Assembly (NCBI GenBank): GCA_963757475.1
Contig: CAVWRW010000001.1
Span: 7,207 to 71,206, forward strand
DNA from: Candidatus Dormiibacterota bacterium
Lineage (GTDB): Bacteria > Chloroflexota > Dormibacteria > Aeolococcales > Aeolococcaceae
Length of the DNA stretch: 64,000 bases
Reading direction: 5' to 3'
Shown here: positions 1-17,640 of the stretch, one piece after another
Position numbering within the stretch: the first letter of the stretch is position 1
Layout of the letters: the number at the start of each line of letters is the position of its first letter
The notes under the pieces: model-generated
What the model was told of the DNA's origin: nothing
The model's input: only the letters and a program-made list of their open reading frames with translations
Databases searched by the model: none
Translations under genes and position numbers: made by a program

Positions 1-163
1 CGATCACCGTGGCGCCGACCCGGTGAGCCGCCGCGAGCTTCACAGGGTTGCGAGCGATGGCGGTCACATTGGCGCCCGACGCAGCGAGGGCCTCAACCAT
101 CGCGAGCCCCAGGCCCTCGCTACCACCAGTGACGACGATCCGCTTTCCGCTGAGATCTGGCAT
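1..163 (-). CDS. short-chain dehydrogenase/reductase, N-terminal part (gene runs off the left edge)
   Basis: Hand translation of the minus strand from ATG at 161-163 gives MPDLSGKRIVVTGGSEGLGLAMVEALAASGANVTAIARN. This carries the TGxxxGxG Rossmann motif of classical SDRs. It is absent from the ORF track because the window edge truncates it. Confidence 0.7.
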   Translation of the reverse strand, partial: MPDLSGKRIVVTGGSEGLGLAMVEALAASGANVTAIARNPVKLAAAHRVGATVI

Positions 164-187
164 GTTCGTTCTCCTCTTGCCACACCG

Positions 188-523
188 TCAGGCGGAATGC
201 TCGTAGATGATCTCGCCCGCGACGCTCTCGAAGGCGGCAAGCGCTGCGATTCGCGGGAAGTACGCGCGCATGCCGGGGTTGGCCTGCATTGCCTCAACGG
301 ACGCCAGGTCGCGCCATTGCGAGTAGATCACGACCCGGCGCCTGTCGTTGGCAACGATGACGGTGGTCGAGATCCAGCCGTCAAGCGTGCTGACGACATT
401 TTCGGTGTTGTCACGTAGCAGCTCGACGAGCCCGGGTTGGTTCTCCGGCTCCACGATCAGGGTATTGATGAGGGTGGTGGCCTCTGCCGGCCTCGCGATT
501 GTTGCGCTCATAACTACCTCCAA
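188..523 (-). CDS. antibiotic-biosynthesis-monooxygenase (ABM / Dabb) family protein
   Basis: 111-aa ORF of single ABM-domain size. The pattern NTLIVEPENQ...VVIYSQWRDLASVEAM...FESVAGEIIYEH is typical of the family. It sits directly upstream of the SDR gene on the same strand. Confidence 0.65.
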   Translation of the reverse strand: MEVVMSATIARPAEATTLINTLIVEPENQPGLVELLRDNTENVVSTLDGWISTTVIVANDRRRVVIYSQWRDLASVEAMQANPGMRAYFPRIAALAAFESVAGEIIYEHSA

Positions 524-642
524 AGTGTCGGGTCGCGGTGGGTGCTGACACCATGAAGACGACGCGGGGAATGGAAACGGATCGGTCCGCTTCGGATCCT
601 CTGGGCTGCTTATCGGGTAAGACTTCGTGTTATCGTTAGCTC

Positions 643-903
643 ATGCGCACGACGGGGACGGTGACCATCTCGCTCCCGCCAGAGCTCGCGGTCGAGGTCG
701 ACCGCCTGGCGCACCAGGAAGGCCGGACCCGCAGCGAACTTTTGCGCGAGGCGTTTCGCCAGTACGCAGAGCGACGCAGACGATGGGATCAGGTCTTTGC
801 GTATGGAGAAGAGCGAGCGGCTGCCGGCACCCTGACTGAAGACGCCGTCGTAGCCGCGGTGAAATCGCGCCGGAGCCGCTCTCGCCGCAAGCCATCACGC
901 TGA
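643..903 (+). CDS. ribbon-helix-helix (CopG/MetJ-type) antitoxin
   Basis: 86 aa. The N-terminus TVTISLPPELAVEVDRLAHQEGRTRSELLREAFRQY is an RHH signature. Its TGA stop abuts the GTG start of the PIN gene. Confidence 0.75.
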   Translation: MRTTGTVTISLPPELAVEVDRLAHQEGRTRSELLREAFRQYAERRRRWDQVFAYGEERAAAGTLTEDAVVAAVKSRRSRSRRKPSR

Positions 904-1296
904 GTGCGGGTCGTTCTCGACACCAATGTACTCGTGTCAGCGCTCCACTTTGGTGGACGCCCGCGACGTCTCCTGGCCGACGTCCTCGGTGGTGATCACG
1001 CGCTGATCATTGGTCCAGCGATCCTCAGCGAGCTCGAGGCCGTGCTCGTGGAGACCTGTGGCTGGGCGGGCGATCGGGCTGCAGCAGTGCGGGCCGAGCT
1101 CGAGGCGATCGCCGAGGTGGTGACGCCCGTTGAGATTCCACGTGTCTGCCGCGATCCTGATGACGATCAGGTCCTTGCGATAGCCATCACCGGATCGGCC
1201 GACGCTCTCGTCACTGGGGACGCGGATTTACTCGCCCTTGGGGCGTATGCCGGCGTCAACATCAGCTCCGTCGCCGACTTCGAGGCCCGGGGCTGA
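904..1296 (+). CDS. PIN-domain toxin (PIN_3-like) of a type II TA pair
   Basis: 130 aa. VVLDTNVLVSAL, DPDDDQVLAIA and ALVTGDADLL supply the conserved acidic residues of a PIN domain. It lies immediately downstream of the RHH gene. Confidence 0.8.
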   Translation: MRVVLDTNVLVSALHFGGRPRRLLADVLGGDHALIIGPAILSELEAVLVETCGWAGDRAAAVRAELEAIAEVVTPVEIPRVCRDPDDDQVLAIAITGSADALVTGDADLLALGAYAGVNISSVADFEARG

Positions 1297-1334
1297 GAAG
1301 GTGGCCGCCTACACGCCGAGCGGCCGCATCATTT

Positions 1335-1487
1335 CCACGCGAGTCCAACGAAATCCATAACCCGTGCTCTAGTCGTCATTCCAACCATTTCCGGACGAAA
1401 GCACTCTAAATCGAACTCAGCACGCGGTGGAGAATAAGGGCTGGTCTGGGGGACCAGGGGTCGCAAGTTCGAGTCCTGTCTCCCCGA
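1335..1487 (+). repeat. dispersed repeat copy 1: ~105-nt conserved 5' module plus tRNA-Pro(GGG) 3' half (1441-1487)
   Basis: CTGGT-CTGGGGG-ACCAG anticodon arm (U33, GGG, G37), GGGTC variable loop, GCAAG-TTCGAGT-CCTGT T arm, and CTCCCCG acceptor 3' strand followed by A73. No D arm or acceptor 5' strand lies upstream. The 5' module aligns with copies at 5242, 31331, 35951 and 48330. Confidence 0.8.
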
Positions 1488-1570
1488 GCTTTGGCCAATA
1501 GTGGCAAATATGTTCCGATCGCGCGCTACCATGGTTGTTGCTAATAGTGGCCAAAAATCCTGGGGCCGCC

Positions 1571-3910
1571 CTACACCGCGGGCGTTTCAGGCACCTGGGC
1601 CAGGTCGAGTGCTTCCTTGATTGTGAGGCTGCGGCCGTCCTCCGTTGCGCGTGCGAGCTGGTCCGCAGACAGCGCCGCTCGTGCCTCATCGACGAGTTGA
1701 CGCCCGGGTGTCTCGTCGGAGTACACGTTGACAATGCCCTCCTGATTGGCGTACACCTCCGCGGCAGCAGCGATTCGCACGGCGTTATCCGGTCGGTGCT
1801 CAACAGCCTCGGTGGCTGCGAGACCGACCAGTGACAGCCCAACTCCTCGGACGCTCGCCACGTCGGTGTAGGCGTGCACCGAGTTGAAGAAGAAGCCGCG
1901 CGCAAGCGTGGTGTCGCCGTGCTGCAGATGCGTCCATGCCATCTCGGAGAGAATCCGGGCTTCCTCGGCGCGGTCTCCTATGGCTGCGAACGCAGCGAGG
2001 GACCGTCTGTAGAGGTCGAGCGCAGCGGCCAGGTCACCACGGATGGACGCCAGTTGGGCGAGGCCGCCGAGCGAGAGGCCAGCGCCTTCCTCGTCGCCGA
2101 TTCTCTGCTGGATCTCAAGGGCCTGGGAATACCTCGACTGCGCGGTGCCGAGGTCGCCCTTCACCGTGTGCAGGATGCCGTCGATGGTCATCCCAAACCC
2201 TTCGCCCCAGGTGTAACCGGCGGCACGGCTCCGCTCGATGCTCTCTCTCGCCGACCGCAGCCCGGCGTCGAGATCGAACCCGATCTGGGCCACGGCCGCC
2301 ATGAACGCGGCGCAGCACCGCTCGCGCTCGGCGTTGACCTGCTCCGCAATGGCGTGCGCCTCGTGAAGTTCGTCATTCGACCGCTCGAACTGACCGAGTG
2401 CCCACGAAGCCAGTCCGGCGGTGAGCTGAGCGCCCGCCCGCCCCACGGAAGGAGCGGCAGCGGTGTCGGCGGCGAGGAACAATTCGGCGTAATCCCGCGC
2501 GGTGAGGTTCTTGCCCCGTATGTGCCAGTACATGAACAGATCGCCGCATAACCGCAGGCCAACTTCGCATGCAGCGCCGTCGCCGCTCTTCGCCGCCCCC
2601 ACGAGCGTGTCGAGCGCGACCACGATGTTCACGTCGTCGAGGATGCCGCGTTCGACAGACCTGACCTGCTCCGTGCCCTCGACGCCGCCGCAGATCTCGT
2701 GGGCCAACGCCGCATACCGGTGTGCGTGACGAAGCGCAACCTCCGCTGCCTCGCCTGCGGCGTCGAGGCGCTCGCGGGCATACTCGGCGATCGTCTGCAG
2801 CATGAGCAGCCGGCTCCCCTGGCCGTCCAGCTGCACGAGCGCGTTGTCGACGAGCGATTCCAGATCGTCAAGGCTGCTTTCGCCGGGGTCGGCGCAGACC
2901 GCCTCGACATCGTCGAAGGTGCATCCTCCGGCGAATACGGCCATGCGGCGGAAGAGGCGCTGCTCCAACTCGGTGAGCAGCGAGTGGCTCCAGTCGATCG
3001 TTGCCCGCAGTGTCTGCTGTCGCTCGGGACTGTCGCGGGGGCCGGATGTGAGCACATCGAGGGTGTGGTTGAGCCGCTCGAGCAACGCTTCCGGAGACAG
3101 GAGCCGCAGGCGCGCGGCAGCCAGCTCGAGTGCCAGGGGCAGCCCGTCCAGACGTGCGCAGATGGCCGCGATCGCGGCACCGTTGGCGTCCGTCAACTCG
3201 AATGAGCCGCGGTTCTTCTTCCCACGCTCGACGAAGAGGGCGACGGCTGGATATGCCAGGAGCAACTCGACCGATGCCGCGCCCGATGTCGGCGGCAGCG
3301 AAAGGGGGGCGAGCGCGTATTCGCGCTCGGCCGCGATCTTCAGTGGGGTCCTGCTGGTTGCCACGACGCGGAGGTGGGGGCAGCGCTCGACAAGCCAGGC
3401 CACCTCGGGCGCCACCGTCACGACCTGCTCCAGGTTGTCCAGCAGCAGCAGTGCCTTCTTCTCGCCGATCCGGGCGACAAGCCCGTCACTGGGCGTCCGC
3501 CCTTCCGCCTCCTTCACGTCGAGCGCGTTCGCAAGCGCGGGAACGAAGGCAGCGGCGTCGGTGATGTCAGCCAGTGCGATGAAGGCGACGTCGTCCAGGA
3601 ACACAGGCGCGAGCTGCCGCCCCAGTTCGATGACAAGGCGGGTCTTTCCGACACCGCCGGGGCCCGTGATCGTCACGACCCGATGCTCCCGGGTGAGCTC
3701 GACGAGGGACGCGAGGTCAGCGGCTCGACCGACCAGTGGCGTCGCCGGCACGGGCAGGGTGCTCGCCAGGCTGGCGAACCGACGGCTTGCAGCCGGCGAC
3801 TCCTGGAGCACGCGGGTCGCGCCGCGGTCAGCGCGCTCGGTGGCATCGATCGGAACACCGATCGGGTGGAGCCGGCGCGCCTGACCGGATGTCGGTGGGA
3901 GGTTATCCAT
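1571..3910 (-). CDS. STAND-type NTPase (NB-ARC-like P-loop) with C-terminal TPR repeats; no recognisable N-terminal effector or DNA-binding domain
   Basis: Walker A GPGGVGKTRL, Walker B LLLLDNLEQV, the NB-ARC-like ARLDGLPLALELAA, then about 400 aa of TPR-like helical repeats. I chose the ATG at 3910 (MDNLPP) over the track start at 4003 because it overlaps the upstream ORF stop by 8 nt. Confidence 0.8.
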   Translation of the reverse strand: MDNLPPTSGQARRLHPIGVPIDATERADRGATRVLQESPAASRRFASLASTLPVPATPLVGRAADLASLVELTREHRVVTITGPGGVGKTRLVIELGRQLAPVFLDDVAFIALADITDAAAFVPALANALDVKEAEGRTPSDGLVARIGEKKALLLLDNLEQVVTVAPEVAWLVERCPHLRVVATSRTPLKIAAEREYALAPLSLPPTSGAASVELLLAYPAVALFVERGKKNRGSFELTDANGAAIAAICARLDGLPLALELAAARLRLLSPEALLERLNHTLDVLTSGPRDSPERQQTLRATIDWSHSLLTELEQRLFRRMAVFAGGCTFDDVEAVCADPGESSLDDLESLVDNALVQLDGQGSRLLMLQTIAEYARERLDAAGEAAEVALRHAHRYAALAHEICGGVEGTEQVRSVERGILDDVNIVVALDTLVGAAKSGDGAACEVGLRLCGDLFMYWHIRGKNLTARDYAELFLAADTAAAPSVGRAGAQLTAGLASWALGQFERSNDELHEAHAIAEQVNAERERCCAAFMAAVAQIGFDLDAGLRSARESIERSRAAGYTWGEGFGMTIDGILHTVKGDLGTAQSRYSQALEIQQRIGDEEGAGLSLGGLAQLASIRGDLAAALDLYRRSLAAFAAIGDRAEEARILSEMAWTHLQHGDTTLARGFFFNSVHAYTDVASVRGVGLSLVGLAATEAVEHRPDNAVRIAAAAEVYANQEGIVNVYSDETPGRQLVDEARAALSADQLARATEDGRSLTIKEALDLAQVPETPAV

Positions 3911-4502
3911 GCACGTCCGCCGCGCTCTGACCGTGGGGGCAGCGGCTTCGCACGGACAGCACCGCCACCTGTCCGCTGCGATCCCGCAGCCAGAGCTTGC
4001 CAAGTCGATCCCTGAACTCCACCGCCAGCGCCACTGCGCGCGCCTGATCCGGTGGCTGTTCGGTCGACAGGAGGTATCTGCTCATATCCGGGACGATAGG
4101 GCCGTTCTCCTGTGAGCACAGATGCACGGAGCCGTCCGCGCTGTCGATACCCCAGTCGAAGACGGGCAGGTCGGTGTCGTTGCGGACCTTCACTGCCCAG
4201 TAGGGCTGACCGCGGTCTGGGTCAACTTCAACGTCCATCCACGCGGCGATCGCCGTGCGCTTCCGGACGTCTTCCTCATGGCGCTGAATCACGATCGCGC
4301 TCAGCGCCACCACCGCAGCGGACACGGAGCCGATACCCGCAATCCACTCGCCCCACGTCCCCAGGTTAGCCTGATTAGCCGAGCCTCCGGGAGGCACTCC
4401 CCAGAGCCAAAGCGAGGCGAGGATGATGCACGCGAAAACGAGGACCCACTTGGTTGCGGGCGACAGCCACGCTTGCCTGACGCGTCCGCCAAGAGATCTC
4501 AC
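3903..4502 (-). CDS. hypothetical membrane protein (2 TM) translationally coupled to the STAND NTPase
   Basis: 199 aa with GC3-rich codons. It has two hydrophobic helices (WVLVFACIILASLWLWGV and WIAGIGSVSAAVVALSAIVI) followed by a ~120-aa soluble domain. Its stop overlaps the STAND ATG. Confidence 0.6.
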   Translation of the reverse strand: MRSLGGRVRQAWLSPATKWVLVFACIILASLWLWGVPPGGSANQANLGTWGEWIAGIGSVSAAVVALSAIVIQRHEEDVRKRTAIAAWMDVEVDPDRGQPYWAVKVRNDTDLPVFDWGIDSADGSVHLCSQENGPIVPDMSRYLLSTEQPPDQARAVALAVEFRDRLGKLWLRDRSGQVAVLSVRSRCPHGQSAADVHG

Positions 4503-4592
4503 AATCTGCCCTCTCAGCGCCTACGCGGGCGCACTGGCCTCAAGTTGGTCAGGCACGCTGGCCGGAACACTTGGCACCAAGGAAGCGATCGG

Positions 4593-5030
4593 TCACTGTT
4601 CGATGCCGTGAATGAGCTGGCGGCTGTAGGTGTCTGCGTCATAGTAGCCAATCGACTTTGCTACGAGACCCGACGCACCCATTGTCCAGACTTCGATGCC
4701 GCTCACGCGGACTCGGTGGCCGGTCCCTCCAGTCCCTGTATTCGATCCGGTGAGCGTCCATACCCAGAAGACTGAGTCACCGGCTACGAGCACGTGGTCG
4801 ACGCTCACGCGAAGATCCGGAAATGCTTCCATGTAGCCGGCGGCGGTCGCAGCGAGTTCCGCCCGGCCGGTCGACGGCTTGCCGCGGTTGATCGTGAGCG
4901 ATGCGTTCTCCTCGTAGCAGCTCGCTACGCCCTCCGGGTCCTGGCTGGACCACGCTCTCGAAGCGCGCATGACCAGATCCCAGACCGCCCTCGACGGCGA
5001 CGTGACGCCGGGGCTGGAGGCGAGGTCCAT
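4593..5030 (-). CDS. SnoaL/NTF2-like (ester cyclase-like) protein
   Basis: Only the C-terminal 145 aa of the 472-aa track ORF looks genuine: ASCYEENASLTINRGKPSTGRAELAATAAGYMEAFPDLRVSVDHVLVAGDSVFWVWTLTG. The start is the ATG at 5030. Confidence 0.65.
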   Translation of the reverse strand: MDLASSPGVTSPSRAVWDLVMRASRAWSSQDPEGVASCYEENASLTINRGKPSTGRAELAATAAGYMEAFPDLRVSVDHVLVAGDSVFWVWTLTGSNTGTGGTGHRVRVSGIEVWTMGASGLVAKSIGYYDADTYSRQLIHGIEQ

Positions 5031-5241
5031 GAAACGAGAGGGTAGTACCTCGGGCACGGGTTCGATCGAACCCCGGCCCCCCTGAGCGTTGACTGCGTAG
5101 GGTCGACGATGCTCGAGGTGGCCTCGAAGCCACGAGGAAGAGGCTCGCATCATGGCGCACGGCAGGGCAGGCGAGCAGCGGCGCAGATTGGTCTGAGCCG
5201 CATCCATGAGAAACGTCGTCGGCAAGTTGTCCAGGTACGTA

Positions 5242-5395
5242 CACTCGATTCCAGCGCTTTCCAGCTTGCAGGGACTAGTGCTCTTTCCAACCAATTCTCG
5301 ACGAAAGGGAACATTTCCGAATACGAGCCCGAGCTCGCAAATGAGCACTAGTCTGGGGGACCAGGGGTCGCAGGTTCGAAGTCCTGTCTCCCCGA
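5242..5395 (+). repeat. dispersed repeat copy 2 with tRNA-Pro(GGG) 3' half (5348-5395), degenerate
   Basis: CTAGT-CTGGGGG-ACCAG, GGGTC, GCAGG-TTCGAAGT-CCTGT (8-nt T loop), then CTCCCCG followed by A. The 5' module is CTCGATTCCAG...GTGCTCTTTCCAACCAATTCTCGACGAAAG. Confidence 0.7.
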
Positions 5396-6510
5396 CGGAC
5401 GCGCTTGAGAGGGCATGGTTGAGATCATCGGACGGTCTTTGCCAGCCTGTGTCGCTCGCCCTCCAAACGGTGTCAGCTGCGGGGACTTGTGGTCTTGAGT
5501 GCCCAAGACACCTGATGCACTCCTCAGGTGGTCCGAAGGAAGGGATGCGCCGTTCAGGCCACCCCGGCTCTCCGGTGCGGCACTCGCACGGCACGATTCG
5601 CGCATGTCTGACCGAGCGAGCCCCAGTACGCGCCCGCGTTTGTTCGCAAGGATGCAGACGGAGCCCTACGGCGAGATGGATTATCGGTCGAGGGAGGACA
5701 ACGATCCATTGCTGAGGAGCGTGACCGATGCACAGGCAGCTTCCAGACACGCCGAACATTCGCTGCCAGGTTGTGGCGGAGATCGGCTGATCCCGTTGAC
5801 GTTCTCGGTTTATCGACGCGAGGCAGCGCCAGAGACGAAGTTGCGCCGACCGGTAGCGAAGTGCGCCGCTTGTGGCGAACGAATCCGCGCCGACATGGTG
5901 ATTCTCCAGCCGAACGCGAGGGCGACCTGACGTAACGAGCCTGACTGTAGTGTGGCGAGAAGGCCCGAGTACGTTGCCAGGCATATGAGCGACGTACCAG
6001 TCATTGGCCAACGGTCTCGTCGATTAGTGGGGGCGGGCGATGTGTGCAACGAAGACAGGAGGGCCGATGTGAGGCCCATGCCCTTGGCGCTAGGACCTGC
6101 GGCGCCCAACCTTCCAGGAGCCGCCTTGTGCTGTCCCGTCCCGAAAAGCGATAAGAAAAGATCAGGCCACTCGGGCGGTCAACCTGATATCCAAGTCAGC
6201 TGGCTGTTGTCGAGTTCTGCTGACGCACGGGCTTGTTGCTTTGCCCTTCGACGACGGATGCTCTCGCAGCGTGCGCAACGCCTCCAGCCACCCGTTCCAG
6301 GCGCATCAACACCGCGGTCCTTGATCCTCTGACCGAACCAGCATTCGCTTTCGTCGTGAAAGTGCCCCCGCATCAAGTTGCGCGCGGCAATTGCCTCAGA
6401 GTGGAACGGAACCCTATCGCCCATGTGACAACGGCGTCCTCTCGCACCGGGTAACCGAGAAGGAAACGGCGCGCACGCGTACCAAGCGATTGTGTCGACT
6501 CACTATGTCT

Positions 6511-8495
6511 TCACGAGACGCTGATGGTGTACACGAGGATGCGGTCGTTATAGGTATCGGCGATATAGAGGTTGCCATTTGGTCCGAACACAACATTCTC
6601 GGGATCGAGCAAGGCCTTCGGTCCGCCGCCGGTCACGTCACTGCCGGTGATGATCGCTGCGACCGTCCCATCGGACTCGTTGAGAACGACCACCCGGTCG
6701 TTGGTGCGATCCGCAACGGCGAGCAGCCCAGCGCCGTTCGAAGCCACACCGTACGGCTTGTTGAATCCGGCCGTGAAGGTCGCGACCTGCGAGACAACGC
6801 TGCCATTACTCACCTTGAGCTCGACAACACGGTTGTTGAGGCTGTCGGCCACAAAAACATTGCCCGTCGTCGGGTCGACGGCCACGCCGGTCGGCGTCGA
6901 GAACTGACCACTGCCGGAACCCTTGGTGCCGTAGGTGGCTACCGCGGTGTCGGTTGAGACCTTCCACGATTCAACGCGATTGTTCTTCGTGTCGGCGATC
7001 CACGCGTAGCCGCCTCCGATCGCGATCGAGTACGGGTAATTGTCATCGCCGAGAGCTGTCCCGACAGCCCCGAACTTCGCGAGTTCCGTTACAACCGCTT
7101 GCGGTGGGCTGCAGGACCTGCAAGTCACTCTGCTTGGTGTCGGCGATCCAGTAGTTGCCAGTGGCCGGATCCACGGCGACACCACGTGGCCAGTTGAAGT
7201 CACCGGTGCTCGTGAAACCTCTCTGGCCGCACATGTTGATGATGTGGCCGGATGAGTTGAACACCACTACGCGCTGGTTGATCGTGTCCATCGCAATCAA
7301 ATCGCCCGACGCGTCGAACGCGATGCCACGCACCTGATTGAACACCGATGTGTCGGTGTCTCCCGGCGGAACGATCGGGTTCGGGACGGTCTGGCTGTAG
7401 GTATAGCCACTGGACGAGCGTGTGAACTCAACGAGGCGGTTGCCCCAGAGGTCGGCGCCCCACACGTTGCCGTGGCTGTCGACGGCCACACGGCGAAGCT
7501 GGGTAAACGTGCCCGTCTGGGCGTCGCTACCCGGAGACCCGAAATCCGCGACGAACATACCCGTTGGCGTGAACTCCTGGATGCAGTCGTCGTTCGAATC
7601 AGCGATGTAGATGGCCTCCCCCGGCTTGCCCGCGTTGATAAAGGGATCCGTGCCGATCGCGACGCCGTACGGGTTCTTGAATGTTCCGCCGGCGTTCCCG
7701 CCGCACACGCCCGTGGTTGCCTTCTTGCCCTTGGTCCCCCAGGCCCGCACGCAGGTACCGCTGGAGTTGAACTCGAGAACGTTGTTGCTTTCGTAGTTAG
7801 CTACGTAGACGTTCCCTGATGCATCGGCCGCCGCGTCGCGCATCCTATTGAGCGTACAGGCACCCTGCGACGAGATCGTCCGTACAACCGCACCCGAAGT
7901 GCTGAACACGACAATCTGGCTCTTGGTGCCATTGGCAACGTAGACGAGTTGCCCTGCTGGCGTGGTGCTCACCGTGACGCCAATCGGTGCTCCGCCGCCG
8001 GGCAACTTGAACGGCTTGATCATGCACTTGCCCGTCGTGCCGCTGAGCTTCAGGATGCGGCCATTGCCGTTGTCAGCGACGTAGACGTTGCCGGACGAGT
8101 TCGACTCCGACGTCACGGGGCTGCTCGAACTGCGGGAAGGTCGCTGGATTCGCACCGCAGGCGGCCCCGCTCCCTTCCGATCCAACGCGCCAGACGAGCG
8201 CGCCTGTTGGGGTGTACTCGGCGACCTGATTGTTGCCTGTGTCGGCAACGACGAGGTTACCGTTGGGGGCAATCTCCATGCCTGACGGATACATCTCGGC
8301 ATGACCCGGGCCGCCGATGGTCGACGAATACGCGGCAGTCACAGTGGGATCGGGCGCGGGCGCCGCGCTGACGGGCAGCGCCGCAATCAACCCCGGAATG
8401 ACGATGGCTGCGCCGAGCACCATCCCAACGCGCGAGCGCAACCCAAATGTATGGCCAGACGGCCTTCCTTGAATCATCTGTCCCCCTCGAGCCAC
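6511..8495 (-). pseudogene. NHL-repeat secreted protein, disrupted by two frame shifts (near 8110 and near 7100)
   Basis: Three overlapping minus-strand ORFs (8073-8495, 7043-8302, 6511-7203) together read as one ~660-aa protein. It has a signal peptide (AIVIPGLIAALPVSAAPA) and repeated blades such as GNVYVADNGNGRI, GNVYVANYESNNV, GNVWGADLWGNRL and GNLYIADTYNDRI. Confidence 0.75.
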
Positions 8496-8829
8496 GGCTC
8501 ATGTCCAGCTGATTCTCCCCGGCCACGGATCGTATCAGCCGGAGGGTATTCGCTGCAAACGCGTCGCCTCCCCAAGATGTATCCGGGTCCAGCCTGCCGT
8601 TGCTGTCAAACGGTGCCGCAACCTCCATGTGCTCATGGGTCACGCGGCGGAAGAACGGCACGCGTGGTTCAGACGCGTAATGGATGAAAGTGGTCATCGT
8701 CGGCGTGCCGGTGGAAGGCGGCGTGCAACACCGAGGAGGATTCGGTATCATTTACTGCAGCGGCGCCTGCCACGTGCACGAAACCGTAGGGGAGATCCGG
8801 ACGCGATCCAGATCAAGGGGGTGGTTCCT

Positions 8830-10665
8830 ATGGTGTTCCGCACTAGGGGCACGGCTCGACGCACAGCCATAGCGCTTTCGGTAACCGCATCGGCGGCTCT
8901 TGTCAGCTCCGTAGGAGCGCAGGCGGCCACGCTAGCGGCCACACCGGTCACGACAATCGGTGGCAGCGCAACCGCGCAGGTCTACGCCTGGGGCGCTGCC
9001 ACCATGCCGGACGGTTCCATCCTCATCGGCGACTACTGGAACCTCCGGATCGTCCACTACAACGCCAACGGGACGCCCGCGACGCCGTTCGTATTCGCCG
9101 GCAAGGCCGGCTTCGGCGCTGGTACCAACCAGGCTCCCTTCGGGCTGTGCGTCGACAACAGCACCGGTCCCGGCCGCGGCGACGTGTTCATGACCGAGGG
9201 CAGCCTCTACAACGTCAACGAGTACACCCCGACGGGCACCTTCATCACCAGCTGGGGCAGCAACAAGGCCGTCCACCTGGTGAACTTCACCTATCCGTCG
9301 CAGTGCGCGGTCAACCCGGTCAACGAGAAGCTCTACATCTCCAACCAGTGGGGGAAGAGCATGGTGATTCTCGATCCCCGCAACCCCAGCACCGCGGCGC
9401 AGTTCATCTCACCGCCGGCGCCGAACCAATTCATCCAGCCGCGCAGCCTCGCGTTCGACAGCGCTGGCAACGTCTGGATCGCCGACCAGGGCCACCACCG
9501 CATTGACATTTACCCGAACGGCCTGACCGGCAGCAAGCCGATCAAGACGATCCTCCCGCCGGGCGGCGTGTCGACCACGTTCGACATGCGCGGCCTGGCG
9601 ATCGACACCACCAACAACGTCGCCTTCGTCAGCAACGGCCAGGGCTGCCTCGTGCAGGAATTCAATGCGGATCCCTCGAGTCCCAGCTTCGGTGCGTTCA
9701 TCACCAACTTCAACGGTGTTGGCTCGACCGGCAGTGACTGCGGCACGGGGCCCGGCCAGTTCGAGGACGGCGCTCGGGATATCGCGGTTGACGGCAATCA
9801 CGATGTCTGGGTCAGCGACCTTGGCGACTTCCGGGCCCAAGTCTTCAGTGAGAGGGGGACTCTGCTCAGTGAGGTGCCGACGCCTCCCGGTCCACCGCCA
9901 ACCGGCGGCTTCAACGGACCTCGCGGCGATGCATTCGACGCCGCGGGTGATCTCTTCGTGACCGATACATACAACGAGCGCATGGAGAAGTTCACGCTCG
10001 TCGGCGGTGTCTACAAGTTCTCGCTCGCGTGGGGGATGCGCGGAGAGACACCGAACACTTTCAACTACCCACGGCTCATGTGCTTCGATCCCATGAACGG
10101 CGACATCATCGTCGCCAACACGGACTCCAACGAGGTCGTCGCCTGGAGCACATCGGGTCACGAGGTGTGGGCCGGCATCGGGCTGGCGGATCCGTACGGG
10201 GTTGCATGTGGAGCTACCGGCGACGTGTACGCAGCCAATAGCAACGGTCAGAACGTGGTCGTCTTCAGCAGCTCGGGCGCCACGATCGCGACCATCGGCA
10301 GCAAGCTCGGCTTCCTTAGGGGAATATGGGTTGACAGTGACGGTTCAATCTGGACGGACGTCGCGGCGACCGGAGCCGTTTACCACTTCTCGGCAGCAGG
10401 CGTGCAGCTCTCCAAGTTCACGGTGAGCGCAACCGGTGGTGCGTTCGGGATCGCCGGTGATGCCGGATATCTCTACATCGCGTTGAGCTCGTCGAACACG
10501 GTCGCCCAGTACACGCGTAGTGGCACGCTGGTCAGCACCTTTGGCGGTGCGGGGTCAACACTCGGCAAGCTGCGTACACCTCAGGGCCTCGCCTTCGGAC
10601 CGGACGGCAAGCTCTACGTCGTCGAGCAGAACAACGATCGTGTGAGCGAGTGGACTGTCTCGTAG
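8830..10665 (+). CDS. NHL-repeat secreted protein (intact paralog)
   Basis: 611 aa from the ATG at 8830, with AAGGGGG a few nt upstream. Signal peptide AIALSVTASAALVSSVGAQA. Blades include PRSLAFDSAGNVWIADQGHHRI, PRGDAFDAAGDLFVTDTYNERM and PQGLAFGPDGKLYVVEQNNDRV. Confidence 0.85.
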   Translation: MVFRTRGTARRTAIALSVTASAALVSSVGAQAATLAATPVTTIGGSATAQVYAWGAATMPDGSILIGDYWNLRIVHYNANGTPATPFVFAGKAGFGAGTNQAPFGLCVDNSTGPGRGDVFMTEGSLYNVNEYTPTGTFITSWGSNKAVHLVNFTYPSQCAVNPVNEKLYISNQWGKSMVILDPRNPSTAAQFISPPAPNQFIQPRSLAFDSAGNVWIADQGHHRIDIYPNGLTGSKPIKTILPPGGVSTTFDMRGLAIDTTNNVAFVSNGQGCLVQEFNADPSSPSFGAFITNFNGVGSTGSDCGTGPGQFEDGARDIAVDGNHDVWVSDLGDFRAQVFSERGTLLSEVPTPPGPPPTGGFNGPRGDAFDAAGDLFVTDTYNERMEKFTLVGGVYKFSLAWGMRGETPNTFNYPRLMCFDPMNGDIIVANTDSNEVVAWSTSGHEVWAGIGLADPYGVACGATGDVYAANSNGQNVVVFSSSGATIATIGSKLGFLRGIWVDSDGSIWTDVAATGAVYHFSAAGVQLSKFTVSATGGAFGIAGDAGYLYIALSSSNTVAQYTRSGTLVSTFGGAGSTLGKLRTPQGLAFGPDGKLYVVEQNNDRVSEWTVS

Positions 10666-10695
10666 TCGGTCAGACTTAGCCCCCCCTTTTTTGGG

Positions 10696-10725
10696 CCGTC
10701 GCGGGTGCTCCCTGCTCCGCGACGG
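10696..10725 (+). terminator. stem-loop downstream of the NHL gene
   Basis: Perfect 9-bp inverted repeat CCGTCGCGG...CCGCGACGG, 31 nt after the stop. There is no clear T tract. Confidence 0.35.
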
Positions 10726-10898
10726 GCGTTCCCTTTCAAGACGCGGGCAGTTGGTCGTCGGCCACTAGGTGATAGCCCCTCGCGTCAAACACCCGAATCG
10801 CCCGACACAGATGCCGAAGGAGCCTGGTTGGTGTCAGGTCCAAACCCGAACTTGCTTTGGCTGAAGACGAACGGGGTGGCCGGTGTGCCGTCGGCGTT

Positions 10899-11190
10899 TT
10901 AGTGGACGATCCGGTAGTTCCAGTAGTCACCAACCAGAACGGAGCCGTCGGGCATGGTTGCGGCCCCCCAACCATAGAGAGCCGCCGCGGCGGGGATGGG
11001 CTTTGCCCTGGCCGTTGGTGAGACCGACGGTTGCGCCCGGCGTGCACGCAGTCGGCTTGCAGCCGGTCGGAGGAGGCGCGCTCGCCTGCGCTACCGAGGC
11101 GCCGAGTCCAGCGGTTGCAAACGCGACCGCCAATCCACAGACGACGGCGACCCGGCTCACCCGCGTTCCTCGTAGGCTGATCGCCATCAA
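10899..11190 (-). pseudogene. N-terminal remnant of a third NHL-repeat gene (frame-shifted and truncated)
   Basis: A signal peptide ORF (MMAISLRGTRVSRVAVVCGLAVAFATAGLGASVAQA) is followed in another frame by ...AAALYGWGAATMPDGSVLVGDYWNYRIVH*. This matches residues AQVYAWGAATMPDGSILIGDYWNLRIVH of the intact paralog. Confidence 0.65.
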
Positions 11191-11212
11191 GACCCCTCTC
11201 CGAATACAAGAA

Positions 11213-11236
11213 AGCGGGTGGCAGATGCCACCCGCT
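11213..11236. repeat. palindromic hairpin element, copy H1 (AGCGGGTGG-N6-CCACCCGCT)
   Basis: The same stem sequence recurs at 29757-29783 and 40140-40166. Confidence 0.6.
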
Positions 11237-11468
11237 CGGGGAGAATTACCAACCGATAGACCGCCTCGGCCCCACGCCGACGCCAGCCGTCACATCCACG
11301 ACCCAACGACACCTTCCTCATCTTCTTGGCCCCCGGTCTCGCGCGTTTCCTAGGCCGATCCAAAGCACCCGGACCATGGTCGCCACGGCTCGTCGCACGA
11401 AGCGACGAGAACATATGATCGGACCCCAACCTGAACGCCACATTAAGCGTGTGTAACAACTGCTCCGG

Positions 11469-12701
11469 TCAGGGCAGATCGAGTGTGAACCTCGTGACAT
11501 GGAGCGAAGGCTGATCGAGCCGCACCACGCCTCCGTGTAAACGGGCGATCGTCTGGCAGAGCGCCAGGCCAAGTCCTGCGCCGCCGGTTTCGCGCGTTCT
11601 CGACGGGTCACCTCGCTTGAAGCGCTCGAAGATCTCGTCGCGTAACTCCGGAGCGATGCCGACGCCTGAGTTCGACATAGTCAGGTGCCAGCCGGCGTCA
11701 TCGGCTTCAGCTGCCAGCCAGATCGAGCCTCTGTTTGGTGTGTACCGGCACGCATTGTCCATGAGGTTGTCGAGGAGCCGAGCCAGGAGCATCGGATCGC
11801 CCTGGACCATCCCTTGGTCGGGCAGCTCCAACTCGAGGTTGAGGTTTCGCGTTTCGACGACGGCCTGCCATCGGGCGGCAACATCGGCAAGAAGGTCCGC
11901 GACGTCGACGGGTTCCCGCTGAATGGCGAGGTGTCCCTCGTCCGCGCGAGCCAGAATGAGCAAGGCGTTCGCCAGCTCGCTGAGGCGAATGACTTCGCGC
12001 TGCAGAATGGTCAGGCTCTCGTGGTACTCAGCGGCGCGCCGCGGTCGGTCCAGGGCTCGATCTGCAACAGTGCGCATGATCGCCAGCGGGGCACGCAACT
12101 CGTGAGCGGCGTCGGCCGTGAAGTCCACAAGACGCGAGTTGAGGCGGCGGAGTTCATTCGCCTGGGCGCCGAGAGCTTCGACGGCTTCACTGAGCTCGGC
12201 ACTCAGTTGTTGGTTCTGAGCCAGCTGAGCGGCGGTCTCGTCAGCCCGCTGGCGCTCGATGTCGAGCAACCGTCCATGAAGCTCGCTCCGCCTATGCTCT
12301 GAGCGTTGCAGGGCGATGACAGCGAGGCGTCCGACAACCGCAACGATCACAACCGCGGTGAACTGGAATCCCCCGGTCACGCGATCGACGGCACCATCCA
12401 CGACCGCCGCGATGATGACGGCCAACGCTGCCGCGGCCACAGTCGTCGCCCAGGGCGTCGGGAGTGTCCACGTTCCGACGAGCACCGCTAACAGTGCATA
12501 GCTCCCAAGGGTCACACCCGGAAGCACGGCAGTTTCTCCGATGAGCACCAGGGCCAGGCCCGCGATGCAGACCGTGAAGACGGCCGCGATCTGTCCAGCC
12601 CCAGTAAGCTGTTGCGGTCGACTCAGCAGATGCCGTGCCCAGCGTTTGGTCCGGCGTGGGGGAGTTGCCGACCGTGGCGCGGTCGTCGAGGCGTTACCCA
12701 T
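11469..12701 (-). CDS. sensor histidine kinase (HisKA + HATPase_c)
   Basis: H-box AAHELRAPLA, N box DNLMDNACRYTP, G box GGAGLGLALCQ, and an N-terminal TM segment. Its ATG overlaps the response-regulator stop by 8 nt. Confidence 0.85.
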   Translation of the reverse strand: MGNASTTAPRSATPPRRTKRWARHLLSRPQQLTGAGQIAAVFTVCIAGLALVLIGETAVLPGVTLGSYALLAVLVGTWTLPTPWATTVAAAALAVIIAAVVDGAVDRVTGGFQFTAVVIVAVVGRLAVIALQRSEHRRSELHGRLLDIERQRADETAAQLAQNQQLSAELSEAVEALGAQANELRRLNSRLVDFTADAAHELRAPLAIMRTVADRALDRPRRAAEYHESLTILQREVIRLSELANALLILARADEGHLAIQREPVDVADLLADVAARWQAVVETRNLNLELELPDQGMVQGDPMLLARLLDNLMDNACRYTPNRGSIWLAAEADDAGWHLTMSNSGVGIAPELRDEIFERFKRGDPSRTRETGGAGLGLALCQTIARLHGGVVRLDQPSLHVTRFTLDLP

Positions 12702-13380
12702 TGCGCGGGAGGGGCTCGAGGCGGTAGCCGCTTCCTCGCGTGGTCACGATGTTGTGGTCAGCCCCTGCCGACTCCAATTTGCGCCGCAGACGCGCGATGT
12801 ACACCTGGACGAGGTTCGACCGAGAAGAGTAGTCGTAGCTCCAGGTGTGGTCGTGCACCTGCACCGAGCTCATCAGCTGGCCGATGTGGTGCACGAACAG
12901 TTCCAGGATGGAGTACTCCTTGCTCGTCAAGGGGAGTGGCCGCTCGGTCACCCTCACGATGTGGGCTCGAGTGTCGATTGCGATGTTTCCTGCGCGCAGT
13001 ACGGCGCCACGATCCGGCAGGTTTCGCCGGACGAGCGCCCGAATGCGAGCGAGCAGTTCCTGGAACGCGAAGGGCTTGACGAGGTAGTCGTCAGCACCCG
13101 CCTCGAGCCCAATGACACGATCTCGAATGGCGTCACGCCCGGTCAGCATCATGATGCCGGCGCCAATCTTCCGATGTCGCAGCTCCCGGCAGACCGCGAA
13201 CCCGTCCATTGTCGGCGGCAGCATCACGTCAATGATCACGACGTCGAAAGCGGCCGTCGTTGCAGCCACGATGGCGTCGACGCCGTTCTCGACCGTGTCG
13301 ACACCAATTCCGTATTCGACCAAGCCACGGCTGACCTCCTTGGCCAGGATGACATCGTCCTCCACCATGAGTACTCGCAT
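12694..13380 (-). CDS. OmpR/PhoB-family response regulator
   Basis: Receiver domain MRVLMVEDD...DVVIIDVMLP, plus a winged-helix output (LVQVYIARLRRKLE...TRGSGYRL). Confidence 0.9.
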   Translation of the reverse strand: MRVLMVEDDVILAKEVSRGLVEYGIGVDTVENGVDAIVAATTAAFDVVIIDVMLPPTMDGFAVCRELRHRKIGAGIMMLTGRDAIRDRVIGLEAGADDYLVKPFAFQELLARIRALVRRNLPDRGAVLRAGNIAIDTRAHIVRVTERPLPLTSKEYSILELFVHHIGQLMSSVQVHDHTWSYDYSSRSNLVQVYIARLRRKLESAGADHNIVTTRGSGYRLEPLPRNG

Positions 13381-13452
13381 AACCGGAAGGTATCGCGTCC
13401 CGGGGTCTGGTGGCGAGGCCTCGCGCGTTCCCGGGGACCGAACGGACGCCCC

Positions 13453-13469
13453 GTCACCTTCCTGTCACC
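13453..13469. promoter_or_regulatory. direct repeat GTCACC-N5-GTCACC between the response regulator and the Flp gene (candidate OmpR-type site)
   Basis: Two identical hexamers spaced 11 bp apart in the divergent intergenic region. The spacing matches one helical turn, as is typical for OmpR/PhoB sites. Confidence 0.25.
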
Positions 13470-13572
13470 GCGCCGCCGAAGAACGTGAGATGGACTGTGT
13501 CGTCCTTTTCAGGTGGGGTTCATGTGCACGGCGCATCCTGTGGCGAGTTACTCAGCTCCAGCGGAGAAGATC

Positions 13573-13773
13573 ATGCAGTGCGGCTACATTCGTTGTCGTG
13601 AGGTTGCTCTCAACCAGCTCAAAACGCATCTCCAAGCCCAAAACGGCCAGGGCATGGTCGAATACGCGCTCGTCCTTGTGCTGATCGCCATAGTCGTCAT
13701 CGTCGTGCTGACGACTGTAGGGAAGCAGGTCAACAATGTGTTCTCAAATATCAGCAAGGGTCTCGGTTCCTGA
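13573..13773 (+). CDS. Flp/Fap family type IVb pilin (prepilin)
   Basis: 66 aa from the ATG at 13573 (GGAGAAG RBS). The motif GQG/MVEYALVLVLIAIVVIVVLTTVG is the Flp G/xxxEY processing site plus hydrophobic core. Confidence 0.8.
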   Translation: MQCGYIRCREVALNQLKTHLQAQNGQGMVEYALVLVLIAIVVIVVLTTVGKQVNNVFSNISKGLGS

Positions 13774-13812
13774 TCCACGCTGGTGATCGTTACCCCGGGA
13801 GTTGACTGAAAC

Positions 13813-14040
13813 TCACCGAAGTTCCACAGAACCACTGTGAAGCGGCTTCGCGAGGAGTCCGATCGCGATTGGTTCTCCGCATTCGGGGCACTCCGCGGGC
13901 CGCTGTATGAGGCACCGATTTCTATCCGCGTCCTTACCGTCCGTTATTGAGACGGCAATTGCACCCCCGCATCCGAGGCAGTCGTACGTCAGGTGCATTG
14001 CACTGACGCGGCTCCCGACGAGGTTCACGTCCTGGACCAT
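13813..14040 (-). CDS. small zinc-ribbon protein (CxxC...CxxC), function unknown
   Basis: 75 aa with a strong GGGAGG RBS about 9 nt upstream of the ATG. It contains CLGCGG...(25 aa)...CPECGE. Confidence 0.5.
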   Translation of the reverse strand: MVQDVNLVGSRVSAMHLTYDCLGCGGAIAVSITDGKDADRNRCLIQRPAECPECGEPIAIGLLAKPLHSGSVELR

Positions 14041-17177: not shown

Positions 17178-17179
17178 GC

Positions 17180-17638: not shown

Positions 17639-17640
17639 CG

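What the first reader, a model, noticed from the sequence alone, without database searches (positions are those of the whole stretch)
1335..1487. Family of ~150-nt same-strand repeats ending in a tRNA-Pro 3' half with no 5' half (copy 1, definition of the family)
Positions 1441-1487 parse cleanly as the 3' two-thirds of a bacterial tRNA-Pro. The parts are anticodon stem CTGGT/ACCAG, loop CTGGGGG (U33, anticodon GGG, G37), variable loop GGGTC, T arm GCAAG-TTCGAGT-CCTGT, and acceptor 3' strand CTCCCCG ending in G72 followed by A73. G72 and A73 are tRNA-Pro hallmarks. No CCA is encoded. The 30 nt upstream contain no D arm and no CGGGGAG acceptor 5' strand, so this is not a tRNA gene. Instead there is a ~105-nt module (CCACGCGAgTCCAA..TCCAT..TGCTCTAGTCGTCATTCCAACCA..TCGAA..AATAAG). 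That module recurs with the tRNA half at 5242, 35951 and 48330, and without it at 31331. All five copies are on the + strand and all are intergenic, and three sit between convergent genes. Some positions look compensatory: GAGTC...GAACTC in copy 1, GATTC...GAATC in copy 3, and CTCGATTC...GAATaCGAG in copy 2. Two readings are possible. (a) They are attR-like scars of serially integrated elements that target tRNA-Pro. Actinomycete elements such as pSAM2 use the anticodon-loop-to-3'-end segment of a tRNA-Pro gene as the att core, and the repeated ATTCCA-like motifs could be arm-type sites. Against this, 64 kb contain no integrase, excisionase or conjugation gene, and the blocks between copies look like ordinary chromosomal genes. 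(b) They are a non-autonomous mobile element or a structured small RNA with a tRNA-like 3' handle. I do not recognise it as a described family.
Basis: partly seen in the sequence, partly recalled or inferred. Interest (0 to 1): 0.78.

Follow-up and report, generated by a model that had tools for sequence, protein, structure and literature searches.

The report
Integration-site junctions of tRNA-Pro cassette array
The ~150-nt repeats are the joints left where small blocks of accessory genes were inserted one after another into a proline tRNA gene of an uncultured soil and peat bacterium (Dormibacterota). This is a known kind of scar, but here it forms long arrays in which no block carries its own integrase.

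Summary
Five same-strand copies lie in the window, about 250 more occur in Dormibacterota MAGs and peat or soil metagenomes, and there are none in viral contigs. They are not tRNA genes, Rfam families, MITEs or structured RNAs.

Each copy is a site-specific recombination junction with three parts:
- a ~105-bp arm (the "module") whose best-conserved columns are three direct ATTCCA motifs;
- a 47-bp core identical to tRNA-Pro(GGG) from the anticodon stem to A73;
- in most family members, a conserved ~195-bp or ~135-bp tail.

Key evidence:
- All six intact tRNA-Pro(GGG) genes found lie upstream of the copies and on the same strand. The two left flanks examined carry der-gpsA.
- A 99%-identical genome has the intact tRNA exactly where the window has copy 1. 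Homology starts at base 1441.
- Another genome is 99.8% identical up to base 1487 and then diverges.
- Across 124 junctions, upstream and downstream cargo re-assort. The module travels with upstream cargo and the tail with downstream cargo.

The unusual feature is the absence of recombinases: 1.38 Mb around the junctions holds only one unrelated integrase remnant. Cassettes have a median size of 4 kb and arrays reach 100 kb or more.

Best reading: tandem accretion of integrase-less cassettes by an unidentified recombinase acting in trans. This is a new variant of a known kind.

The parts
1334..1440 (+). Copy 1, P-arm 'module'. It carries direct ATTCCA-type motifs (GAGTCCAAC, AAATCCATA, CATTCCAACC) and CTAG.
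   Evidence: nhmmer hit of 158.9 bits. The highest-information columns of the 93-copy alignment fall on the TTCCA motifs.
1441..1487 (+). Copy 1 core: the displaced 3' part of tRNA-Pro(GGG), from the anticodon stem to discriminator A73, with no CCA.
   Evidence: Matches the intact tRNA of L033 with one mismatch. The 99.07% homology with L033 starts at 1441, and the 99.8% homology with L083 ends at 1487.
1..1333 (.). Cargo of the cassette that ends in copy 1; its left end lies outside the window. It holds an SDR fragment, an ABM-domain gene, and an RHH antitoxin (643-903) plus PIN toxin (904-1296).
   Evidence: Pfam and L092 annotation. The unit 611-1487 (toxin-antitoxin pair plus junction) is 82-89% identical in six other loci, with the alignments ending at 1472-1487.
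1488..5239 (.). Cargo of the second cassette: a STAND NTPase-TPR gene (1571-4003, - strand) and unknown ORFs.
   Evidence: 99% identical in L033, where it directly follows the intact tRNA-Pro. Both of its borders are synteny breakpoints. Pfam.
5240..5395 (+). Copy 2: module 5240-5347 and core 5348-5395. It is followed by the start of a type-A tail (CGGACGCGC...).
   Evidence: nhmmer hit of 131 bits. Sequence.
5396..31325 (.). 26-kb block of accessory genes: NHL proteins, a two-component system, TauE, a TPP enzyme, gluconate and GMC dehydrogenases, an enolase-family gene, GH15, an ABC transporter, a CLC channel, TetR and a methyltransferase. It may be several fused cassettes.
   Evidence: Pfam. 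No further junction was detected, even with a relaxed nhmmer search.
31326..31408 (+). Copy 3: module positions 2-88 only. The core is deleted.
   Evidence: nhmmer hit of 48.9 bits covering hmm positions 2-88.
31418..31539 (+). Remnant of a type-A tail (P' arm), positions 121-243. It is fused to the truncated module of copy 3.
   Evidence: nhmmer with the tail-A profile, E = 8e-14.
35949..36097 (+). Copy 4: module 35949-36049 and core 36050-36097. The core carries point changes in the anticodon loop and the acceptor strand.
   Evidence: nhmmer hit of 133.7 bits. Sequence.
48339..48478 (+). Copy 5, the last junction of the array and attR-like. Both module and core are degenerate. The presumed chromosomal right flank follows.
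   Evidence: nhmmer hit of 95 bits, with 3 mismatches in 29 nt of core. A homologue of the adjacent GGDEF-EAL gene also follows a junction in L007.
48556..51123 (-). PAS-GGDEF-EAL gene, the first gene to the right of the array.
   Evidence: Pfam. Synteny with L007.

Best explanation
The repeats are DNA recombination sites, not genes. The window lies inside a long tandem array of small integrated gene cassettes anchored at the chromosomal tRNA-Pro(GGG) gene of a Dormibacterota bacterium.

The mobile unit is [tail (P' arm) - cargo genes - module (P arm)]. As a circle, its ends would join around a tRNA-derived core. That would give an attP of about 350 bp or less.

Integration into the tRNA gene replaces the tRNA's 3' part with the copy carried by the element. 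It pushes the old 3' part downstream, behind the element's module. Repeating this gives: tRNA - [tail cargo module] - core - [tail cargo module] - core ... - chromosomal flank.

What is shown:
- the anchoring at the tRNA;
- the exact breakpoints;
- the re-assortment of cargo at the core;
- the absence of recombinase genes from the cassettes.

What is inferred:
- The enzyme is a tyrosine-type integrase encoded elsewhere and acting in trans.
- Strand exchange occurs in or just after the 7-nt anticodon loop.
- The ATTCCA motifs are arm-type binding sites.
- The system is still active.
For: 1. Anchoring. All six intact tRNA-Pro(GGG) genes found in related loci lie upstream of the first junction and on the same strand. 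In the two loci whose left flank was examined (L011, L033) the tRNA follows housekeeping der-gpsA.
2. Occupied versus empty site. L033 is 99.07% identical to window 1441-5396 and has the intact tRNA where the window has module plus core.
3. L083 is 99.8% identical to window 1-1487 and then diverges.
4. All copies lie on one strand in 33 of 33 contigs with more than one copy. Spacing is 0.4-26 kb with a median of 4.2 kb, and arrays span 100 kb or more.
5. Among 124 junctions, 48 pairs share only upstream cargo, 9 share only downstream cargo and 12 share both. Module identity follows upstream cargo (87.6% against 77%). Tail identity follows downstream cargo (88.9% against 57%). The breakpoint therefore lies in the core.
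6. The type-A tail also follows the intact tRNA in L010 and L011, as expected for attL.
7. The anticodon-stem 5' strand varies (CTGGT, CTAGT, CTAAT). Everything from the loop to A73 is nearly invariant. This fits a crossover in the loop plus selection on the part that rebuilds the tRNA.
8. Information content peaks on three direct TTCCA motifs in the module. The consensus tail A contains a related motif in inverted orientation.
9. Junction quality does not fall with distance along arrays (mean rho -0.08 over 12 arrays). Eight junctions spread over 100 kb all score 158-175 bits.
Against: - No integrase that could act on these sites was found. There is none in the window, none in 1.38 Mb around roughly 250 junctions, and none within 5 kb upstream of the tRNA or 15 kb right of the array.
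- No autonomous helper element was found in viral contigs.
- No circular or excised form was observed.
- All re-assortment could in principle arise from deletions by homologous recombination between the 150-350-bp repeats.
- The motif screens for recombinases could miss an unusual enzyme family.
Confidence: 0.72

Rival explanations
1. The junctions are relic scars. The array was built long ago by ordinary integrase-bearing islands or prophages whose integrase genes have since been lost. Present-day differences between genomes come only from RecA-dependent deletion and gene conversion between the repeats. No dedicated system exists today.
For: - No integrase was found near any junction.
- Some junctions are decayed or internally deleted, such as window copies 3 and 5.
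- The window versus L033 and L083 differences can be modelled as deletions between direct repeats.
- The Dehalococcoides ssrA arrays are discussed in similar terms (PMC3146451).
Against: - About 215 of roughly 270 hits are near full length and close to consensus across different species-level genomes, whereas the cargo is unrelated.
- There is no decay gradient along arrays.
- Both arms (module and tail) are conserved, as expected for sites under selection.
- Loss of every integrase from hundreds of 1-6 kb units, leaving no remnant of a cognate integrase, is hard to explain. The one remnant found (L080) abuts a different tRNA fragment.
Confidence: 0.18
2. The repeats encode a ~150-nt structured small RNA with a tRNA-like 3' handle, used for example for processing, stability or CCA addition.
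For: The 3' part retains a T-arm that is 98.7% paired, with a few double changes. The sequence is strongly conserved and intergenic.
Against: - RNAalifold on 92 copies predicts only the T-arm.
- An exhaustive search for helices of 4 bp or more finds none in the module with covariation.
- One anticodon-stem pair is unpaired in 59 of 91 copies and another in 14 of 89.
- There is no acceptor 5' strand or D arm.
- There is no Rfam family match.
- T-arm covariation is inherited from host tRNA variants.
- Anchoring at the tRNA gene and the synteny breakpoints have no explanation under this reading.
Confidence: 0.03
3. The repeats are a non-autonomous transposable element (MITE-like), or the end of an IS or transposon that targets intergenic DNA.
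For: It is a short, repeated, intergenic, multi-copy sequence. IS256-family transposases occur in 13 related loci.
Against: - There are no terminal inverted repeats. The best match is 14 of 35.
- All copies share one orientation and cluster in one region downstream of one tRNA gene.
- The right end is exactly the tRNA 3' end.
- No transposase is linked to the copies.
Confidence: 0.02
4. The conserved unit is mainly a regulatory or insulating intergenic element, such as a terminator or promoter block between accessory operons. It would be spread by recombination and only historically derived from the tRNA.
For: The copies are always intergenic, some sit between convergent genes, and the tails are long and conserved.
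Against: This does not explain why module and tail segregate with different neighbouring cargo. It does not explain why the tRNA-identical core is the most invariant part. No test of promoter or terminator activity was made.
Confidence: 0.03

Closest known systems
Dehalococcoides ssrA-specific genomic islands (tandem arrays downstream of the tmRNA gene; PMC3146451)
   Same: - More than a dozen direct repeats of the 3' end of a t(m)RNA gene lie within about 100 kb downstream of that gene.
- Islands are arranged in tandem.
- The contents are strain-specific.
- Some islands lack integration genes and are discussed as cis-mobilizable elements.
- The host is in the related phylum Chloroflexota (relatedness from my own knowledge).
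   Different: - There the repeat is only 20 bp, and 16 islands carry a six-gene integration module with serine recombinases (DsiB/DsiA).
- Here the repeat unit is 150-350 bp with conserved arms on both sides.
- The target here is tRNA-Pro(GGG).
- Cassettes are smaller (median 4 kb), and no recombinase gene was found in any of them.
Prochlorococcus tycheposon-seeded genomic islands (bioRxiv 10.1101/2020.12.28.424599)
   Same: - Islands sit next to tRNA genes.
- They are built by successive integrations that push older elements inward.
- Partial tRNAs and remnants are scattered through the island.
- The cargo consists of niche-adaptive genes.
   Different: - Tycheposons carry their own tyrosine or serine recombinases, and fragmented integrases are common in those islands.
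- No conserved ~105-bp arm or ~195-bp tail is reported next to each partial tRNA there.
- Here, cognate integrase remnants are absent.
Cis-mobilizable elements (CIMEs) and site-specific accretion with ICEs/IMEs (reviewed in PMC5704250; cited in PMC3146451)
   Same: Both involve elements bounded by functional att sites that encode neither integrase nor transfer functions. They sit in tandem with other elements at the same attB and are mobilised by an integrase supplied by another element.
   Different: - As I recall, described cases involve one or two CIMEs next to a resident ICE that supplies the integrase.
- Here there are arrays of at least eight (up to 11 seen in one MAG) with no resident helper in view.
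- Mobilisation here is an inference and was not shown.
Chromosomal integrons (IntI, attI, attC cassette arrays)
   Same: The functional logic is shared. Both are one-orientation arrays of recombinase-less cassettes, each ending in a conserved recombination site, anchored at one chromosomal site. Toxin-antitoxin cassettes are present, and cassettes re-assort between strains.
   Different: - No intI or attI was found.
- The sites are not attC-type imperfect palindromes. They are asymmetric arm-core-arm sites containing a tRNA fragment.
- Cassettes are multi-gene, on both strands, and carry their own regulators.
- This is not a member of the integron family.
pSAM2-type actinomycete integrative elements and other islands with anticodon-centred tRNA att sites (Islander, PMC4383910)
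   Same: The identity segment runs from the anticodon region to the 3' end of a tRNA gene, and the element restores the tRNA. Islander lists 2083 islands with anticodon-centred attP.
   Different: - Those elements encode their integrase next to attP.
- In Islander, which counts only arrays whose members each carry an integrase, tandem arrays of three or more occurred only 4 times among 3919 islands.
- The arm motifs here are unrelated to the pSAM2 arm sites as I recall them. That point rests on memory and was not tested.

Membership tests
tRNA gene (tRNA-Pro) | Complete cloverleaf with acceptor 5' strand and D arm, detectable by tRNA finders | tested here: not met
   ARAGORN finds 0 genes in the window. 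The Rfam tRNA model gives 19.1 bits against a gathering score of 29. Alignment to the intact gene shows the 5' 26 nt replaced by the module.
Displaced tRNA fragment marking an integrated element (Islander-type island end) | The fragment matches the 3' part of an intact tRNA gene that lies upstream on the same replicon in the same orientation | tested here: met
   6 of 6 intact tRNA-Pro(GGG) genes lie upstream and on the same strand. The copy 1 core matches the intact gene with one mismatch. The intact gene of the window's own genome lies outside the window. Its place is inferred from the 99%-identical L033.
Displaced tRNA fragment marking an integrated element (Islander-type island end) | The fragment coincides with a synteny breakpoint between related genomes (occupied versus empty site) | tested here: met
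   L033 homology starts at 1441 and L083 homology ends at 1487. Flanking cargo re-assorts in 57 junction pairs.
Displaced tRNA fragment marking an integrated element (Islander-type island end) | An integrase gene lies within each element | tested here: not met
   No tyrosine or serine recombinase signature was found in 1.38 Mb, apart from one truncated integrase in L080 that abuts a different tRNA fragment. Pfam scans of about 50 window ORFs found none.
Tyrosine-integrase attP-type site | A core with inverted core-type sites around a ~7-bp overlap, flanked by arms that carry repeated arm-type sites | tested here: inconclusive
   The anticodon stem provides the inverted repeat around the 7-nt loop. 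There are three direct TTCCA motifs in the P arm and a related inverted motif in tail A. Protein binding and the cleavage positions cannot be tested here.
Cis-mobilizable element (CIME) | Bounded by att sites, lacks integrase and transfer genes, and is excised or integrated by an integrase supplied in trans | tested here: inconclusive
   The first two features are met. Trans-mobilisation was not shown and no helper was identified.
Integron | An intI gene next to attI at the head of the array | tested here: not met
   The head of the array is a tRNA gene preceded by der, gpsA and PLP-enzyme genes. No recombinase lies within 5 kb.
Integron | attC sites: imperfect palindromes with R''-L''/L'-R' boxes | tested here: not met
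   There is no consensus hairpin apart from the tRNA T-arm. The site is asymmetric.
MITE / IS end | Terminal inverted repeats, target-site duplication, and dispersed copies in both orientations | tested here: not met
   The best inverted-repeat match is 14 of 35. All copies share a strand in 33 of 33 multi-copy contigs.
Any Rfam RNA family | A covariance-model score at or above the gathering threshold | tested here: not met
   Only the intact tRNA in L010 passes.

The most novel reading that the evidence does not exclude
Dormibacterota may carry a tRNA-anchored functional analogue of the integron. In this reading, a chromosomally encoded recombinase acting in trans captures, excises and reshuffles integrase-less cassettes at tRNA-Pro(GGG). 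Each cassette is tail, then 1-6 kb of cargo, then module. Each cassette supplies the 3' half of the tRNA. The whole builds a flexible gene store of 50-100 kb or more, enriched in signalling, transport and toxin-antitoxin genes, and kept active by selection on the ~350-bp junctions.
Probability: 0.3. Interest if true: 0.8.

Novelty: new variant of a known kind. Interest (0 to 1): 0.5.

Why it matters
Tandem islands at tRNA or tmRNA genes are well known, but they are usually short arrays. Islander, which counts only arrays whose members each carry an integrase, found arrays of three or more only 4 times among 3919 islands.

Here an uncultured phylum common in peat and permafrost soils keeps a large part of its accessory genome in one-orientation arrays of small cassettes. 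The junctions are conserved and attP-like, and no recombinase is present in cis.

If a recombinase acting in trans is found, this would be a second, independent route to an integron-like gene-capture platform. It would also be a ready-made marker (the 157-nt junction) for tracking gene flow in Dormibacterota from metagenomes. If not, it remains a clear example of how tRNA fragments and att arms persist.

In practice, tRNA-half pseudo-hits in these genomes should be read as island boundaries. The junction also flags probable binning errors.

Tried and rejected
1. Extending the window's own contig with the look-up of encoding contigs. The ABM protein was not on record. The RHH protein was found only on a 1.4-kb Logan contig that ends at the repeat.

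2. The integrase lead. The only recombinase signature near a junction is a truncated tyrosine integrase at L080 3034-3555.
   - Its 23 database relatives are all fragments of 94-205 aa.
   - Their contexts in L093-L095 lack the element.
   - Several, including L080, read into a different tRNA fragment ('ERESNP' translation).
   - I reject it as the cognate enzyme.

3. Helper phage or plasmid. Three patterns (module, core, arm motif) gave 0 hits in viral contigs.

4. RNA structure. RNAalifold, an exhaustive helix and covariation search, and a specific test of the CTAGTCGTC/GAGGACTAG inverted repeat found no support beyond the T-arm.

5. A hidden conserved mobilisation gene. Clustering 2288 ORFs from all loci gave only general domain families (histidine kinases, EAL, ABC, cyclase-STAND, PIN, IS256). 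The 'unknown' clusters were spurious antisense frames over conserved DNA.

6. Re-targeting to another tRNA. L037 has a tRNA-Gly near a junction, but its junction is only a truncated tRNA-Pro type.

7. A decay gradient with distance from the tRNA, as expected if insertion occurs only at position 1. None was seen.

8. Recombinase genes in the flanks of the array. None were found.

Full report
**1. Observation.**
A ~105-nt module (1334-1440) is followed by a 47-nt segment (1441-1487).
- Searches with the tRNA-like part and the module recover the other copies, with 0.00 hits expected in shuffles.
- A repeat search and an alignment give five + strand copies: 1334-1487, 5240-5395, 31326-31408, 35949-36097 and 48339-48478.
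- ARAGORN finds no tRNA gene in the window. Rfam finds nothing at gathering thresholds.
- With lax thresholds, copy 1 scores 19.1 bits against the tRNA model, below its gathering score of 29.
- The window has 63.6% G+C.

**2. Distribution.**
I scanned a species-representative genome collection with a degenerate pattern of the module: TCCA-N6-TCCA-N11-CTAG-N4-C-N-TTCC-N-ACC.
- It hit 91 stretches of DNA. All but four are labelled Candidatus Dormibacterota; the other four carry Saccharimonadales, Micrarchaeaceae or Chloroflexi labels. Several contigs carry many copies.
- Three patterns found nothing in viral contigs.
- An iterated nhmmer profile finds 130 hits in the genome loci and 137 in the metagenome loci. 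About 215 are near full length, with module and tRNA part together.
- In all 33 contigs with more than one copy, every copy is on the same strand. Spacing is 0.4-26 kb (median 4.2 kb). One contig has eight copies spread over 100 kb.

**3. Anchoring at a tRNA gene.**
Six loci contain an intact tRNA-Pro(GGG). In all six it lies upstream of the first copy and on the same strand.
- In L011 and L033 the genes upstream of the tRNA are housekeeping: der, gpsA, and further up in L011 PLP-dependent enzymes.
- The copy 1 core matches the tRNA from the anticodon stem to discriminator A73 with one mismatch. Weaker similarity reaches back into the D-stem 3' strand. No CCA is encoded.

**4. Breakpoints.**
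- Locus L033 is 99.07% identical to window 1441-5396. It has the intact tRNA where the window has module plus core. The two genomes therefore differ by DNA inserted or deleted exactly at the tRNA.
- The same 3.9-kb STAND-NTPase block is followed by different DNA in the two genomes.
- Locus L083 is 99.8% identical to window 1-1487 and diverges after the last base of the tRNA part.
- More generally, 124 junctions have both flanks available. Among them, 48 pairs share upstream cargo only, 9 share downstream cargo only and 12 share both.

**5. Anatomy of the junction.**
Conservation does not stop at the tRNA end in most family members.
- About half of the copies are followed by a ~195-nt 'tail A' (CGGACGC...).
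- About a quarter are followed by a ~135-nt 'tail B' (TTCGCAGC...), which is itself module-like.
- Tail A also follows the intact tRNA in L010 and L011.
- In junction pairs that share only upstream cargo, the modules are 87.6% identical and the tails 57%. In pairs that share only downstream cargo, the modules are 77% identical and the tails 88.9%.

So the module belongs to the cassette on its left, the tail belongs to the cassette on its right, and exchange happens in the core. This is the pattern expected for a tandem array of elements that share one attP. The head of the array is attL (tRNA plus P' arm). Internal joints are attP-like (P arm, core, P' arm). The last joint is attR.

Window copy 3, the 'tRNA-less' copy, is a joint with an internal deletion. 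Module positions 2-88 are fused to tail-A positions 121-243 at 31418-31539.

**6. DNA site or RNA?**
- The best-conserved module columns coincide with three direct TTCCA motifs: GATTCCAAC, ATTCCAT and CATTCCAACCAATTC. The consensus tail A contains a related motif in inverted orientation.
- RNAalifold on 92 distinct copies predicts only the T-arm.
- A search of all column pairs finds no helix in the module with covariation.
- A candidate long-range inverted repeat does not co-vary.
- One anticodon-stem pair is unpaired in 59 of 91 copies and a second in 14 of 89. This is because the 5' strand drifts (CTGGT, CTAGT, CTAAT) while the 3' strand stays fixed. The T stem is 98.7% paired.
- This asymmetry fits a crossover in or just after the anticodon loop. 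DNA to the left comes from the element and is free to drift. DNA to the right becomes part of the working tRNA after each integration and stays under selection. This step is inference.
- There are no terminal inverted repeats.

**7. Recombinase.**
- None of about 50 window ORFs scanned with Pfam is a recombinase. The cargo is accessory metabolism, transport, regulators, a STAND NTPase and an RHH-PIN toxin-antitoxin pair.
- Motif and tblastn screens of 1.38 Mb around all junctions found no serine recombinase and a single truncated tyrosine integrase, in L080.
- That remnant and its database relatives are fragments. Several of them, including L080, read into a different tRNA fragment, and the three contexts examined lack the element. 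It belongs to another element.
- ORF clustering found no recurrent unknown gene that could act as a hidden mobilisation function.
- The enzyme therefore remains unidentified.
- Junction scores show no decline along arrays. That argues against purely passive scars.

**8. Comparison with known systems.**
- The principle is standard. Integration splits a tRNA gene, the element restores it, and the displaced fragment marks the island end (Islander, PMC4383910).
- Long tandem arrays with repeats of a t(m)RNA 3' end are described for Dehalococcoides ssrA islands. There some members lacking integration genes are proposed to be cis-mobilizable elements (PMC3146451).
- Prochlorococcus islands are built by successive tycheposon integrations next to tRNAs (10.1101/2020.12.28.424599).
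- No paper in the library links Dormibacterota with such arrays.
- The differences here are the length and two-sided conservation of the junction, the small cassette size, the array length and the complete lack of cognate integrases.
- The system works like an integron in outline but fails the integron membership tests: no intI or attI, and no attC-type palindromes.

**9. Verdict.**
- The origin by serial site-specific integration at tRNA-Pro(GGG) is very well supported.
- The claim that integrase-less cassettes are still moved by an enzyme acting in trans is plausible but unproven.
- Overall confidence in the combined statement is 0.72.
- I rate it a new variant of a known kind, of moderate interest (0.5).
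- The integron-like reading has about 0.3 probability and would be of high interest if shown.

Noticed in passing
window 643-1296 (+), and homologues in L028, L078, L014, L020, L059, L001, L083: An RHH antitoxin plus PIN toxin pair sits directly upstream of the junction as a conserved ~880-bp unit (window 611-1487). It is 82-99.8% identical across at least seven loci. The DNA upstream of the unit differs in at least L028 and L014. This resembles toxin-antitoxin cassettes in chromosomal integrons.
   Followed up: partly
L080 3034-3555 (+); proteins P0001-P0023: A truncated tyrosine integrase lies inside one cassette. Its reading frame runs into a fragment of a different tRNA ('ECRERESNPP...' translation). 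All 23 database relatives are also fragments of 94-205 aa. This looks like a second, decayed family of tRNA-targeting elements in the same habitats.
   Followed up: partly
Type-A tail, e.g. L010 190-385 and L011 (- strand) after the tRNA; remnant at window 31418-31539: About 195 nt after the tRNA end are conserved in roughly half of the junctions. They include GTAGTGCTCTAACCAGGAATGATGAC and a GCGCATACATAGCGC hairpin-like motif. In a subset, weaker conservation continues to about 330 nt. I interpret this as the P' arm. A promoter, a small RNA or a tiny ORF was not excluded. Rfam gives only a chance-level hit.
   Followed up: partly
Loci L008 and L018 (Saccharimonadales), L090 (Micrarchaeaceae archaeon), L061 (Chloroflexi CF_165): Contigs from MAGs labelled as other phyla, or even as archaea, carry near-consensus copies of this otherwise Dormibacterota-restricted junction. 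L018 is also 83% identical to window 27312-29786. These are probably mis-binned or mis-classified contigs.
   Followed up: no
L033 4927-7362 (-): A single 811-aa ORF joins two der/EngA GTPase domains to a complete gpsA (glycerol-3-phosphate dehydrogenase). In L011 they are two adjacent genes. This is either a real fusion or a lost stop codon in the assembly.
   Followed up: no
window 50953-51007 and 54332-54386; Crp-family genes at 53510-54172 (-), 55654-56322 (+), 57678-58412 (+): A 55-nt direct repeat (73% identity) begins with a CRP/FNR-like palindrome, GTGACGTGAATCAC. It lies in intergenic DNA among three Crp/Fnr-family regulator genes, a PAS-LuxR gene and a GAF histidine kinase. GTGA-N6-TCAC occurs 4 times in the window against 1.3 expected, which is a weak enrichment.
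   Followed up: partly
window 13645-13771 / 25327-25453; 23935-24003 / 41825-41893; 30833-30888 / 34844-34899: Three further two-copy direct repeats of 56-127 nt and 75-82% identity, unrelated to the junction family. Their nature is unknown.
   Followed up: no
L063 1369-2685 (+) and 12 other loci: IS256-family (Mutator-type) transposase genes recur inside the arrays. The arrays therefore also collect ordinary insertion sequences.
   Followed up: no
Arrays in general: The most recurrent cargo families are signalling proteins: histidine kinases, hybrid kinase-receiver-EAL proteins and adenylate-cyclase-STAND ATPases. ABC transporters are also common. The window's STAND NTPase-TPR gene (1571-4003) fits this pattern.
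   Followed up: partly
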